Below, piece by piece: positions 38,695 to 39,394 of a stretch of DNA of 44,504 nt. The stretch lies in the sequence record PZ386946.1. The stretch is one strand, 5' to 3'. The translations under genes were made by a program, and so were the position numbers. This stretch comes from a phage. The notes under the pieces were generated by a model, which was not told the origin of the DNA, ran no database searches, and saw only the letters and a program-made list of their open reading frames with translations. How positions within the stretch are numbered: the first letter of the stretch is position 1; the number at the start of each line of letters is the position of its first letter.

Positions 38695-38720
38695 ATCTAT
38701 CCCCTCGTTTTGATGAGCTA

Positions 38721-38767
38721 ACTATATCCTCCCTGACCCCCAATGTCTTTGGCAAAAAGTGCTATTC
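38721..38767 (-). promoter_or_regulatory. bipartite motif copy, minus orientation (variant AATAGCACTTTTTGCCAAAG)
   Basis: followed on minus strand by TATAGTTAGCTCATCAAAACGAGGGG and ATG of 58-aa ORF. Confidence 0.4.
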
Positions 38768-38783
38768 GTTAGATTTATGGATT

Positions 38784-38836
38784 GTTGCATATATTGCAAT
38801 GATTATCATGACTATTGCACATATGGCAATATTGCT
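38784..38836. repeat. cluster of palindromic TTGCA/TGCAA repeats (ATTGCAAT, GCAATATTGC)
   Basis: TTGCATATATTGCAATGATTATCATGACTATTGCACATATGGCAATATTGC read directly; in non-coding hub B. Confidence 0.5.
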
Positions 38837-39030
38837 TCAGATGCAGTGATGTTTTTGATTGTTGCGAAAAGTGAAATGAAGTGGGGAGTTAGTGAATGAA
38901 AGATTGATGGACTACCATACAAGTTGATTTTGATTCTTGCTGGGCTCGTTTTGCGCATACGCGTTATAAAAGTTATGCCGTGTGGATGAGGTCACCATCC
39001 GTAGGAATCGCGTACGTCTATAACGCAGAA

Positions 39031-39117
39031 TTACGCAATGGTTACACTATAATATCTATATATAACAACCATTTAGTATTATTATTATTATTATTATTAT
39101 ATACGTGTATATAATGT
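39031..39117. repeat. AT-rich repeat element, copy B (contains (ATT)8 microsatellite)
   Basis: direct repeat of 20204..20291, same orientation, about 18.8 kb apart. Confidence 0.7.
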
Positions 39118-39160
39118 AGATAGTGGATATTGGATATTGCGATAGTTTTCTATGATTTTT

Positions 39161-39176
39161 TCCTACAATTGTAGGA
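39161..39176. repeat. perfect 16-bp palindrome TCCTACAATTGTAGGA with adjacent TGTAGGAAT repeat
   Basis: palindrome read directly; TGTAGGAAT recurs at 39189..39197; candidate operator. Confidence 0.5.
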
Positions 39177-39255
39177 ATGGTACTACACTGTAGGAATAAA
39201 TAGGCATATATGGGCCAATCCACCATAAAAACTGATGTACAAGCTGTACACGGTT

Positions 39256-39270
39256 TTACATTGAGCTATA
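39256..39270. repeat. short direct repeat TTACATTGAGCTATA, copy B
   Basis: identical to 20411..20425. Confidence 0.6.
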
Positions 39271-39325
39271 TCTGGGGCCGGGAGCCGAAAAGCGTAAATA
39301 AATTGAATTCAACCATAAATAACAC

Positions 39326-39354
39326 TTGATAACATGTAACCGCGATGATATTAT
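39326..39354 (+). promoter_or_regulatory. sigma70-like promoter (TTGATA-N17-TATTAT)
   Basis: hexamers and 17-nt spacing read directly; about 40 nt upstream of 39395 ORF. Confidence 0.45.
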
Positions 39355-39394
39355 GCACCCATCTTAACGAGAGCAACCAATCAGGAGTATATCT

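What the first reader, a model, noticed from the sequence alone, without database searches (positions are those of the whole stretch)
38700..39394. Second AT-rich hub B: direct repeat of hub A element plus palindromes and TTGCA repeat cluster
Hub B carries the second copy of the approximately 88-bp element (39031..39117, with (ATT)8), the shared 15-mer TTACATTGAGCTATA, a perfect 16-bp palindrome TCCTACAATTGTAGGA, a tandem TGGATAT repeat, and a cluster of palindromic TTGCA/TGCAA repeats (38784..38836). It also lies between a minus-strand operon and plus-strand genes. Two homologous hubs in direct orientation about 18.8 kb apart could be twin origins or regulatory regions. They are also substrates for homologous recombination that would delete or duplicate the intervening early region.
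Basis: seen in the sequence. Interest (0 to 1): 0.65.

Follow-up and report, generated by a model that had tools for sequence, protein, structure and literature searches.

The report
Phage T1-type packaging start plus candidate origin
This 700-base gene-free stretch of a T1-like coliphage holds the site where DNA packaging starts, an early promoter, and one of two conserved, easily melted repeat modules that are the best candidates so far for the unidentified replication origins of this phage family.

Summary
The window is a near-complete Rtp/T1-like (Drexlerviridae, Braunvirinae) genome. Hub B (38695-39394) is composite.

1. A known T1-type 21-nt-repeat promoter drives the leftward operon (38702-38767).
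2. The TTGCA/TGCAA cluster (38769-38870) is the most conserved non-coding block. Together with an adjacent conserved block (38895-38936) it is the likely pac region. Packaging starts mapped in two relatives (MSK, SU57) project to about 38915 and 38931. The T1 and Rtp records begin inside the cluster.
3. A roughly 350-bp module is shared with hub A. It has WWACRY hexamers spaced 9-11 bp on both sides of an AT-rich tract with an ATT-type microsatellite. There are exactly two copies in each of four genomes searched, and they are the two least stable 80-bp duplex segments in all five T1-like genomes tested.
4. Operator-like GTAGGAA sites are specific to this lineage.
5. A strong sigma-70 early promoter sits at 39326-39354.

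The nearby DUF3987 helicase models as an MCM-like AAA+ protein with a C-terminal winged helix. Four distant phages with this helicase carry the same repeat/AT-rich architecture upstream of it. "Twin origins" is therefore plausible but unproven (about 0.5). The recombination-substrate idea is weak.

The parts
38702..38767 (-). Leftward promoter of the T1-family '21-nt direct repeat' type. The repeat is at 38747-38767 (reverse complement GAATAGCACTTTTTGCCAAAG) and the -10-like TATAGT is at 38726-38721. It lies about 73 nt upstream of the ATG at 38694.
   Evidence: Repeat families D8 and D15; promoter scan; consensus aaATAGCACnnnTTGnTAAAA described for TLS, T1 and Rtp in PMC11447400.
38769..38870 (+). 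TTGC/GCAA repeat cluster, with GATTGTTGC at 38780 and 38857 and the palindrome GCAATATTGC. This is the candidate recognition part of the pac site. It is absent from hub A.
   Evidence: Most conserved part of hub B, 0.86-0.92 identity over 8 phages including Rogunavirinae. GATTGTTGC is present only here on the + strand. The T1 record starts inside the homologous cluster and annotates 1-2800 as a repeat region. The Rtp record starts at about window 38827. Hub A has a gap here.
38895..38936 (+). Conserved block GAATGAAAGATTGATGGACTACCATACAAGTTGATTTTGATTC. This is the probable region of the first packaging cut; packaging proceeds rightward.
   Evidence: The MSK PhageTerm start at 36,862 (forward, p = 1.6e-9; PMC8421802) aligns to about window 38915. 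The SU57 genome end, chosen from PhageTerm plus a coverage step (PMC7718038), aligns to about window 38931.
38957..38977 (.). Left inverted repeat set of the shared module (ATACGCGTTATAAAAGTTATG). It is homologous to hub A 20131-20159 (ATACGCGTAACTGATGTAACTCGATGTATAC).
   Evidence: Alignments A1 and A2; motif map.
39001..39007 (+). GTAGGAA site 1. This is an operator-like motif specific to this lineage.
   Evidence: GTAGGAA/TTCCTAC occurs 4 times in hub B and 0 times elsewhere in the genome.
39011..39047 (+). Repeat array 1: TACGT, TAACGC, TTACGC, TTACAC at 9-11 bp spacing.
   Evidence: Motif map. Invariant ACGC/TTACGC/GTTAC columns in 8-17 copies. Spacing statistics.
39013..39122 (+). Core shared element, copy B. 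In order it contains repeat array 1, an AT-rich TATAATATCTATATATAACAACCATTTAG tract with an IHF-like core carrying 1 mismatch, (TAT)8 at 39077-39100, and the inverted repeats CGTGTATATAATGTAGATA.
   Evidence: Sequence model R1: 96.6 bits, exactly two hits in each of four genomes. Least stable 80-bp duplex of the genome, 39042-39121, -77.5 kcal/mol against a mean of -108.1 with sd 5.8.
39124..39137 (+). Tandem TGGATAT x2. It is lineage-variable and weakly DnaA-box-like (2 mismatches).
   Evidence: Absent in Rtp.
39160..39196 (.). Perfect 16-bp palindrome TCCTACAATTGTAGGA (39161-39176) plus a third half-site TGTAGGAAT (39189-39197). Operator-like and present only in some lineages.
   Evidence: Conserved in JulesPiccard and BUCT-XGG-1, degenerate in CJ19, and replaced by unrelated sequence in Rtp.
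39233..39270 (+). Repeat array 2 (TACAA, TACAC, TACAT at 9-10 bp spacing), ending in the shared 16-mer TTTACATTGAGCTATA. It is homologous to hub A 20388-20425.
   Evidence: (D18).
39326..39354 (+). Sigma-70-type early promoter TTGATA-17-TATTAT with TG, followed by a ribosome-binding site (AGGAG at 39383) and the ATG at 39395.
   Evidence: 10/12 match. Second-best score in the whole genome in my rough weight-matrix scan. The -35 TTGATA is aligned in Rtp. It has the same position as TLS promoter P01, one of only three sigma-70 promoters those authors accept.
20186..20295 (+). Core shared element, copy A (hub A). It carries the only perfect IHF core consensus in the genome, TATCAACCTTTTA at 20236.
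   Evidence: R1 hit at 98.4 bits. Second least stable 80-bp duplex, 20215-20294, -80.6 kcal/mol. IHF consensus.
35581..37164 (-). DUF3987 helicase: MCM-like AAA+ core with a C-terminal winged helix. It is the candidate initiator and lies in the leftward operon of hub B.
39916..40461 (+). 181-aa paralogue of the helicase. It keeps the N-terminal 42 residues and the C-terminal winged-helix region and lacks the ATPase core.
   Evidence: BLASTP: 74% over 42 aa (E = 2e-20) and 54% over 63 aa (E = 1e-21). PHROG cross-matches.
43981..44487 (+). Small terminase subunit of the P22 gp3 family. This is the protein expected to recognise pac.
   Evidence: Pfam GP3_package, E = 1.9e-12.

Best explanation
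Hub B is the control region at the physical left end of a T1-like phage chromosome. It consists of five separable elements, read left to right.

1. A T1-family 21-nt-repeat promoter fires leftward into the operon that ends with the DUF3987 helicase.
2. The pac site. The small terminase (P22 gp3 family) is proposed to bind the conserved TTGC/GCAA cluster (38769-38870). The first cut falls about 50-150 bp to its right (about 38915-38932), and headful packaging then runs rightward.
3. An origin-like module of about 350 bp that is duplicated in hub A. Short WWACRY repeats spaced one helical turn apart sit on both sides of an AT-rich tract with an ATT-type microsatellite. The proposal is that the winged-helix domain of the MCM-like helicase, and perhaps its ATPase-less paralogue, binds the repeats. 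The AT-rich tract, the least stable duplex in the genome, would then melt and the phage primase and host polymerase would take over.
4. Palindromic GTAGGAA sites specific to this lineage, probably an operator for an unidentified phage protein.
5. A strong host-type (sigma-70) early promoter for the rightward early genes.

Status of each step:
- Shown: sequence anatomy, conservation, copy number, duplex instability and the helicase fold.
- Shown only in relatives and transferred by alignment: the position of the packaging start.
- Inferred: terminase binding, repeat binding by the helicase, and origin activity.
For: Identity of the phage: 88-92% DNA identity to JulesPiccard, MSK and Rtp-like phages, with gene order matching Rtp and T1.

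Pac region:
- MSK PhageTerm start maps to about 38915.
- SU57 genome end maps to about 38931.
- The T1 record starts in the homologous cluster, with 1-2800 annotated as a repeat. Rtp, phiEB49, FP and OzMSK records also start in this region.
- The cluster is the conservation peak of hub B.
- The small terminase is of the gp3 family.

Origin-like module:
- Two copies per genome, same orientation, in window, JulesPiccard, Rtp and AHS24.
- WWACRY density is 3 times background in the hubs of 5 genomes. In the window 11 of 14 same-strand gaps are 9-11 bp.
- An unbiased k-mer search finds GTTACA, TTACGC and TATACA-type words independently in T1 and in the window.
- The hub cores are the top two least stable 80-bp duplexes in all five T1-like genomes, more than 4.5 sd above the mean.
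- There is no ORF, Rfam match or terminator.
- The helicase has an MCM-like core and a winged helix, and its paralogue flanks the hub on the other side.
- In four distant phages (helicase 34-41% identical) the region just upstream of the helicase has phage-specific repeats together with AT-rich DNA; they flank it in three, and the fourth contig ends inside the region. Two of the four have a long trinucleotide microsatellite, (AAC)11 and (TAA)9.

Early promoter.
Against: - No experiment on this phage or any relative shows origin activity.
- I defined the WWACRY motif after looking at the sequence, and it is degenerate.
- AT-rich divergent promoter regions are often the least stable DNA for reasons unrelated to replication.
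- One repeat set overlaps the -35 of the early promoter (39326 region). That fits transcriptional control as well as it fits an origin.
- T1-like phages carry RecE/Erf/Ssb and might rely largely on recombination-dependent replication.
- The IHF-like core is perfect only in some copies and is absent in the hub A copies of AHS24 and Sd1.
- There are no DnaA boxes or GATC clusters.
- The microsatellite is absent in T1 itself.
- The pac assignment rests on PhageTerm calls of modest quality in two other phages. PhageTerm failed for OzMSK and KanT1.
- The P22-like word AGATTTAT occurs 4 times in the genome, so it carries little weight.
Confidence: 0.5

Rival explanations
1. The shared module is a transcriptional control region, not an origin. 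Under this reading an array of phased binding sites for a phage or host DNA-binding protein switches the two host-polymerase early promoters (hub A proximal, hub B proximal) on or off. The AT-rich tract would act as an upstream or bending element.
For: - Both copies lie upstream of rightward early-type promoters. In TLS the only three accepted sigma-70 promoters are at these two hubs and at the regulator gene.
- The hub B promoter is the second best in the genome.
- A repeat set overlaps its -35 region.
- An IHF-like core is present.
- Two public records annotate in-silico promoters inside the core.
Against: - No conserved -35/-10 pair with proper spacing exists inside the core on either strand when copies are compared (reading of the alignments).
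- The core sits 200-230 bp from the proximal promoters, and the spacer varies by lineage: a palindrome in some phages, unrelated sequence in Rtp. That is atypical for operators or UP elements.
- The same architecture follows the helicase gene in distant phages whose neighbouring genes are partly different.
Confidence: 0.3
2. The shared module serves packaging or recombination. It could be a secondary pac or terminase-loading site, or a hotspot used by RecE/Erf to form concatemers.
For: - Copy B lies about 100 bp from the mapped packaging start and inside the terminal redundancy.
- Copy A lies upstream of the recE/erf/ssb operon.
- According to the MSK paper, ATATA repeats were noted in the earlier literature in connection with pac in T1.
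- Rtp shows a past exchange between the copies.
Against: - Hub A lacks both the TTGC cluster and the cut-region block.
- PhageTerm reported a single forward start in MSK.
- The longest exact identity between the copies is 19 nt.
- The copies evolve as orthologues, not as a homogenised pair.
Confidence: 0.07
3. The module encodes a small non-coding RNA or a tiny protein, present in two paralogous copies.
For: - It is a conserved non-coding block with short hairpin-capable palindromes downstream (AGCTATAGCT; GGCCGGGAGCC).
- Automated annotations place small ORFs here in some records.
Against: - No Rfam match even at E = 1.
- No terminator-like site.
- ORFs are short, not conserved, and broken by indels that are not multiples of three.
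- The core is 74-78% A+T with a microsatellite, which makes poor RNA structure.
Confidence: 0.05
4. The similarity is a by-product: low-complexity AT-rich DNA, or a small mobile element that inserted twice.
For: The AT-rich composition and microsatellite inflate apparent similarity.
Against: - Significant blocks remain after masking the microsatellite, and shuffles score far lower.
- There are exactly two copies at the same two genomic positions across subfamilies. This argues against recent mobility.
- A copies are 96-98% identical among phages whose hub regions match the window at about 88-92%. That indicates purifying selection.
Confidence: 0.03

Closest known systems
Replication origins of phage-inducible chromosomal islands (SaPI and E. 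coli PICI: Pri-Rep-ori)
   Same: - Two sets of short repeats flank an AT-rich, presumably melting, region close to the gene of an initiator helicase. PICI oris are described in exactly these terms (PMC6092414).
   Different: - Here there are two copies 18.8 kb apart in a virulent phage.
- Copy B is about 1.85 kb upstream of the helicase gene rather than directly downstream of it.
- The primase is a separate gene.
- The AT-rich tract carries a conserved trinucleotide microsatellite.
- Replication function is untested.
Phage P4 ori and crr with the alpha primase-helicase (from established literature, recalled, not tested here)
   Same: - Two separate cis-acting regions kilobases apart, both carrying the same short repeats bound by the C-terminal DNA-binding domain of the replication helicase.
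- The T1 primase is annotated as similar to P4-type alpha proteins.
   Different: - P4 alpha is a single fused primase-helicase of a different helicase class, and its repeats differ.
- No evidence here shows that both hubs are needed together.
pac sites of headful phages with gp3-type or related small terminases (P22, Sf6, SPP1, P1)
   Same: - A small terminase of the P22 gp3 family is present.
- A cluster of short repeats lies next to a cut region.
- Packaging runs in one direction from it, as found in MSK.
- An 8-nt match to the P22 pac core, AGATTTAT, lies at 38771.
   Different: - The site lies in an intergenic region about 5 kb upstream of the small terminase gene, not inside it.
- The match to the P22 pac sequence is only 8 of 22 bases, and that word occurs 4 times in the genome.
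T1-family 21-nt direct repeat (aaATAGCACnnnTTGnTAAAA) described for TLS, T1 and Rtp
   Same: The left edge of hub B (38747-38767, minus strand) and of hub A (20107-20127) match the consensus. Each is oriented with transcription and lies about 73 nt upstream of a start codon, as described.
   Different: Nothing differs. This part is a known element whose function the authors call an open question.
Bacterial basal origin unwinding system (DnaA boxes plus DnaA-trios), recalled as an analogy only
   Same: Double-strand binding repeats lie next to a run of a repeated trinucleotide and an AT-rich tract, with an AAA+ initiator.
   Different: - No DnaA boxes are present.
- The initiator would be an MCM-like phage helicase.
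- Binding of single-stranded trinucleotide repeats is pure conjecture.

Membership tests
Iteron-type origin with cognate initiator helicase (PICI/SaPI/P4 kind) | Sets of short repeats on both sides of an AT-rich region | tested here: met
   Repeat array 1 (39011-39047) and inverted repeats (39101-39122) flank the AT-rich tract. Hub A has the same layout. Spacing is 9-11 bp.
Iteron-type origin with cognate initiator helicase (PICI/SaPI/P4 kind) | The AT-rich region is an unusually easy-to-melt segment | tested here: met
   The hub cores are the two least stable 80-bp duplexes in all five T1-like genomes tested. Values are -72.5 to -82.2 kcal/mol against means near -108 with sd about 5.8.
Iteron-type origin with cognate initiator helicase (PICI/SaPI/P4 kind) | An initiator with helicase and DNA-binding domains is encoded nearby | tested here: met
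   The DUF3987 protein at 35581-37164 has an MCM-like AAA+ core plus a C-terminal winged helix. It is in the operon that starts in hub B.
Iteron-type origin with cognate initiator helicase (PICI/SaPI/P4 kind) | The initiator binds the repeats | not testable with these tools
   This needs EMSA, footprinting or ChIP with the winged-helix domain.
Iteron-type origin with cognate initiator helicase (PICI/SaPI/P4 kind) | The element supports initiator-dependent replication | not testable with these tools
   This needs a plasmid replication assay or marker-frequency analysis.
pac site of a gp3-type headful packaging system | Small terminase of the family is encoded | tested here: met
   GP3_package, E = 1.9e-12, for 43981-44487.
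pac site of a gp3-type headful packaging system | The first packaging cut maps to the site | tested here: inconclusive
   Met only by homology. MSK projects to about 38915 and SU57 to about 38931. No read data exist for this phage.
pac site of a gp3-type headful packaging system | Site lies within or next to the small terminase gene (as in P22, Sf6, SPP1) | tested here: not met
   The site is about 5 kb upstream of the small terminase gene, in an intergenic region.
pac site of a gp3-type headful packaging system | Match to the 22-bp P22 pac sequence | tested here: inconclusive
   Only AGATTTAT (8 nt) matches. The word occurs 4 times on the + strand of the genome.
T1-family 21-nt direct repeat promoter element | Consensus aaATAGCACnnnTTGnTAAAA, oriented with transcription, about 76 nt upstream of a start codon | tested here: met
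   The reverse complement of 38747-38767 is GAATAGCACTTTTTGCCAAAG, 73 nt from the ATG at 38694.
DnaA-dependent (oriC-like) origin | Clustered DnaA boxes (TTATNCACA) and GATC sites | tested here: not met
   No match to TTATNCACA or TTWTNCACA anywhere in the genome. The only box with 1 mismatch in the hubs (38981) is not conserved. No GATC in either hub.
IHF-assisted nucleoprotein site | WATCAANNNNTTR core next to an A/T tract, conserved | tested here: inconclusive
   The only perfect match in the genome is in the hub A core (20236). Hub B has 1 mismatch. It is perfect in the JulesPiccard, MSK and 12397V B copies and absent in the AHS24 and Sd1 A copies.
Sigma-70 promoter | -35/-10 hexamers with 16-18 bp spacing, conserved among relatives | tested here: met
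   39326-39354 is TTGATA-17-TATTAT with TG. It ranks second in the genome, and the -35 TTGATA is aligned in Rtp. This is in silico only.

The most novel reading that the evidence does not exclude
The two hubs are a cooperating pair of origins of a kind not yet described. An MCM-like phage helicase would dock through its winged helix on helically phased hexamer repeats. It would then load onto a conserved trinucleotide-repeat track ((ATT)n here, (AAC)11 and (TAA)9 in distant relatives). That track would act as a single-strand binding register, a phage counterpart of bacterial DnaA-trios. The ATPase-less paralogue of the helicase would compete for the same repeats and so time or limit initiation. 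One origin lies within about 100 bp of the packaging cut, so it is carried at the chromosome end.
Probability: 0.12. Interest if true: 0.8.

Novelty: new member of a known kind. Interest (0 to 1): 0.55.

Why it matters
T1-like phages (Drexlerviridae) are classic laboratory phages and common industrial contaminants. Even so, a 2024 reannotation of TLS reports that no origin-type (iteron) repeats were found anywhere in that genome, and it lists basic control questions as open. The SU57 authors say the pac site was not identified.

This analysis gives coordinates that can be tested directly.
- A roughly 170-bp pac region.
- Two candidate origins with a defined repeat, an AT-rich melting tract and a candidate initiator.
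- A general rule: DUF3987 (MCM-like) helicase genes in phages are preceded by repeat/AT-rich regions.

If confirmed, it would allow T1-type replicons and packaging signals to be engineered. It would also explain why many database records of this family start at this spot.

Tried and rejected
- **RNA families.** Rfam on the whole window at gathering thresholds gave only the tRNA at 43593-43667. Hub B at E <= 1 gave nothing.
- **Terminators.** The scan found none in either hub.
- **ORFs.** ORFs of 20 aa or more in hub B are short, overlapping and not conserved.
- **Promoter inside the core.** I looked for conserved -35/-10 pairs on both strands of the aligned copies and found none with proper spacing. 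Only AT-rich pseudo-matches appear.
- **DnaA boxes and GATC clusters.** Absent.
- **P22 pac similarity.** Only an 8-mer matches, and it is not unique in the genome.
- **TTGC spacing.** The gaps are 9, 21, 17 and 30 bp, so there is no clean helical phasing.
- **GC skew.** It simply follows gene orientation.
- **PDB sequence search.** No useful hits for the helicase or for the Cro-like regulator. Only the fold comparison was informative.
- **Literature.** The original Rtp paper (Wietzorrek 2006) is not held, and I did not have the T1 genome paper (Roberts 2004). What T1 position 1 means rests on the record's annotation and on the SU57 authors' statement that pac in T1 lies in this region. Searches for Drexlerviridae transcriptomics or origins found nothing relevant. 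The OzMSK and KanT1 papers report that PhageTerm gave no termini.
- **Run error.** I first thought most fetched loci were missing from the Python sandbox. They were stored several per file.
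Full report
**What the window is.** The 44.5-kb window is an essentially complete genome of an Rtp/T1-like coliphage (Drexlerviridae, Braunvirinae). Hub B and hub A match JulesPiccard, MSK and Rtp-like phages at about 88-92% identity. Gene order is the same as in Rtp and T1. Hub B is the 700-bp gene-free interval 38695-39394. It lies between the first gene of a leftward operon (38515-38694) and the first rightward early gene (39395-39916, DUF7174). Hub A (about 20045-20589) lies between the leftward cor-lipoprotein operon and the rightward recE/erf/ssb operon.

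**Check of the observation.**
- The repeat is 39013-39122 against 20186-20295: 79% ungapped over 101 nt, BLASTN E = 1e-22.
- With the microsatellite masked, a 45-nt block (89%, E = 7e-13) and a 66-nt block (76%, E = 5e-8) remain. Local shuffles never exceed 30 bits, against 59.9 and 43.7 bits observed. The similarity is therefore not a low-complexity artefact.
- The TTGCA/TGCAA cluster is only modestly enriched within this one genome. Its reality comes from conservation.

**The left edge is a known element.** The genome carries at least nine copies of AAATAGCACGAATTGCTAAA followed at a fixed distance by TATAGTTAC...ATCGAAACGA. This is the 21-nt direct repeat reported for TLS, T1 and Rtp, whose function those authors call an open question. 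Reverse-complement copies form the left edge of both hubs (38747-38767 and 20107-20127), each about 73 nt before the leftward start codon. They are the leftward promoters.

**The TTGCA/TGCAA cluster belongs to the packaging site.**
- Hub A has a gap where hub B has 38727-38920, so this part is not shared.
- In an alignment of eight phages from Braunvirinae, Nouzillyvirus and Rogunavirinae, 38740-38860 is the most conserved part of hub B (0.86-0.92). That exceeds the sequence at either end of the alignment, about 0.68-0.71.
- The T1 reference record begins inside the homologous cluster (GTTGCATGG...GATTGTTGC...TGCAATGATTG) and annotates bases 1-2800 as a repeat region, that is, the terminal redundancy.
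- The Rtp record starts at about window 38827. phiEB49, FP and OzMSK also start in this interval.
- The MSK authors report a PhageTerm packaging start at MSK 36,862, forward direction, p = 1.6e-9. In my alignment this is window about 38915, inside the invariant block GATGGACTAC|CATACAAGTTGATTTTGATTC.
- The SU57 authors chose their genome end from PhageTerm plus an abrupt coverage change, and they state that pac in T1 lies in the corresponding region. Their record junction aligns to window about 38931.
- Two independent determinations in two relatives thus fall 16 nt apart.
- The small terminase is of the P22 gp3 family. An 8-nt match to the P22 pac core sits at 38771, but the word is not unique in the genome.

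I conclude, by homology, that 38769-38936 is the pac region and that packaging runs rightward. Unlike P22, Sf6 or SPP1, it is about 5 kb from the terminase genes.

**The shared module.**
- Copy number: a sequence model of the core finds exactly two copies, same orientation, in the window, JulesPiccard, Rtp and AHS24. T1 has a diverged but recognisably equivalent arrangement in both hubs.
- Mode of evolution: A copies cluster with A copies (96-98% among Braunvirinae) and B with B (about 91%). The duplication is therefore old and both copies are under selection. Only Rtp's B copy has an A-like right half, a trace of a past exchange.
- Anatomy, clearest in hub A:
  - three inverted hexamers;
  - four direct hexamers (ATACGC, TTACGC, TTACGC, TTACAT) at 10-11 bp spacing;
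  - an AT-rich tract (TATAATATCTATATATA, an IHF-like core, then the ATT-type microsatellite);
  - two inverted hexamers;
  - about 100 bp further on, three more direct hexamers at 9-11 bp spacing;
  - further inverted ones.
- Enrichment: WWACRY density in the hubs is three times background in all five genomes. In the window 11 of 14 same-strand gaps are 9-11 bp.
- Independent support: an unbiased k-mer search recovers GTTACA (7 observed, 0.19 expected) in T1 hub A, ATTACGC and GATTAAC in T1 hub B, and TATACA, GCGTAA and ATGTAAC in the window's hub A.

**Duplex stability.** With nearest-neighbour energies in 80-bp windows, the two hub cores are the two least stable segments of the whole genome. 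This holds in the window, Rtp, T1, JulesPiccard and AHS24: -72.5 to -82.2 kcal/mol against means near -108 with sd about 5.8. The third-ranked site is always at least 6 kcal/mol more stable.

**What the module is not.** There is no Rfam match, no terminator and no conserved ORF. There are no DnaA boxes or GATC clusters. The core contains no conserved promoter geometry.

**A candidate initiator.**
- The leftward operon of hub B ends with a 527-aa DUF3987 protein.
- A 27-sequence alignment gave a confident model, pLDDT 88.
- The second rightward gene (39916-40461) is a paralogue that keeps the helicase's N-terminal 42 residues (74% identity) and its winged-helix region (54%) but lacks the ATPase. 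The two genes with this putative DNA-binding domain therefore lie on either side of hub B.

**Test in distant relatives.** I fetched four phage contigs whose DUF3987 helicases are only 34-41% identical. Each has a non-coding region upstream of the helicase gene, separated from it by one small gene, with phage-specific repeats and very AT-rich DNA. In L015, L016 and L018 the repeats flank the AT-rich DNA. The L017 contig ends inside the region, so only one side can be seen.
- L016 has CTTACA/TGTAAG repeats.
- L015 has G5/C5 words; all 7 G5 of that locus are here.
- L018 has YACCCCA; 11 copies, none elsewhere.
- L017 has CTTAC repeats.
- Two of the four carry a long trinucleotide microsatellite at the centre, (AAC)11 and (TAA)9.
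- In L015 and L016 the region is also the least stable duplex of the locus.

The architecture therefore travels with the helicase while the repeat sequence changes. That is what one expects of an origin and its cognate initiator. It matches the published description of E. coli PICI origins and, from memory, of SaPI origins and of P4 ori/crr.

**Remaining parts of hub B.**
- GTAGGAA/TTCCTAC occurs four times, only here in the genome. The copies are one at 39001, the perfect palindrome at 39161-39176 and a half-site at 39190.
- These sites are shared with JulesPiccard and BUCT-XGG-1 and are degenerate in CJ19. They are replaced by unrelated sequence in Rtp. They look like an operator specific to this lineage.
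- TTGATA-17-TATTAT at 39326-39354 is the second-best sigma-70 match in the genome. It corresponds to TLS promoter P01. TLS's only other accepted sigma-70 promoters are at hub A and at the regulator gene. The hubs therefore also hold the host-polymerase early promoters.

**Weighing the explanations.**
- The pac assignment is well supported by homology; I put it near 0.85.
- For the shared module the origin reading fits the anatomy, the melting profile, the initiator-type helicase and the recurrence in distant phages.
- Against it, no experiment exists, the motif was defined after inspection, AT-rich divergent promoter regions are commonly unstable, and one repeat set overlaps the early promoter's -35. 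A role in controlling early transcription therefore remains a serious rival (0.3). The two roles are not exclusive.
- I put the composite explanation at 0.5.
The Rtp mosaic shows that exchange has happened at least once.

**Novelty.**
- That the genome end and pac of T1-like phages lie in this untranslated region is already in the literature in general terms.
- The 21-nt repeat is known.
- In the papers I could search I found no description of the duplicated repeat/AT-rich module as a candidate origin, of the MCM-like fold of the helicase with its truncated paralogue, or of the recurrence of the architecture with the helicase. The 2024 TLS paper states that no iteron-type repeats of the kind that mark the lambda origin were found in TLS.
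- The kind of element (repeats flanking an AT-rich tract, next to an initiator helicase) is well known. I therefore class this as a new member of a known kind.
- The conserved trinucleotide repeat and the two-copy arrangement are the features most worth an experiment.

Noticed in passing
window 1561-1623, 8680-8741, 21946-22001, 25786-25815, 29820-29881, 30106-30167, 33682-33743, 41270-41331, 42094-42155, 43007-43084 (+); 20062-20127, 37611-37675, 37220-37240, 38702-38767 (-): These are copies of the T1-family 21-nt repeat. The repeat contains the palindrome TAGCA-N5-TGCTA at a fixed distance from TATAGTTAC (22 nt in the copy I counted, 23 nt at hub B). If TATAGT is the -10, the palindrome centre falls near -42. 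That is the position of a class II dimeric activator rather than a -35 element. The Cro-like 169-aa protein (26833-27342) is an obvious candidate binder.
   Followed up: partly
window 39916-40461 (+) and 35581-37164 (-): The 181-aa protein is an internally deleted paralogue of the DUF3987 helicase. It keeps the N-terminal 42 aa and the C-terminal winged-helix region and has no ATPase core. It could be a competitor or regulator at the same DNA sites or with the same protein partners.
   Followed up: partly
L016 9202-9760; L017 1-250; L015 9059-9681; L018 270-600: Distant phages with DUF3987 helicases have repeat/AT-rich regions upstream of the helicase. Two of them have long trinucleotide microsatellites, (AAC)11 and (TAA)9, the only such repeats in those loci. 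This recurs with a different sequence from the (ATT)n of T1-like phages.
   Followed up: partly
L004 (Rtp) 45760-46140: Rtp has roughly 250 extra bases between two copies of the leftward 21-nt repeat in its hub B. The insert is GC-richer (GGAGGCCGTTCGGCTC...) and absent from the window. BUCT-XGG-1 carries a related stretch. Its nature is unknown.
   Followed up: no
L004 (Rtp) 187-295 versus 28060-28169: The Rtp hub B core is a mosaic. The left half is B-type and the right half is nearly identical to the hub A copy. This points to a past gene conversion between the two hubs.
   Followed up: partly
window 33323-33440 and 40831-40948: A 118-nt direct repeat at 71% identity lies inside two ORFs (33121-33699 and 40656-41270). 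They are probably paralogous genes.
   Followed up: no
window 41523-41554 and 41716-41747: The 5' ends of two adjacent small ORFs are 88% identical (GTGAATAAGATGATTAC...). This looks like a tandem duplication of a small early gene.
   Followed up: no
window 43593-43667 (+): A tRNA gene (Rfam, 58.5 bits) lies in the early region. The homologous genes in JulesPiccard and AHS24 are annotated tRNA-Arg.
   Followed up: no
L004 28260-28658 (rtp46), L006 22631-22978, L008 22307-22513: Public annotations place ORFs over hub A repeat arrays. Examples are rtp46, which starts at ATGATATACACG, and AHS24 gp28, which lies over the core. The conserved ribosome-binding site and ATG correspond to the short 64-aa ORF at window 20590-20784, so these calls are probably over-extended or spurious.
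   Followed up: partly
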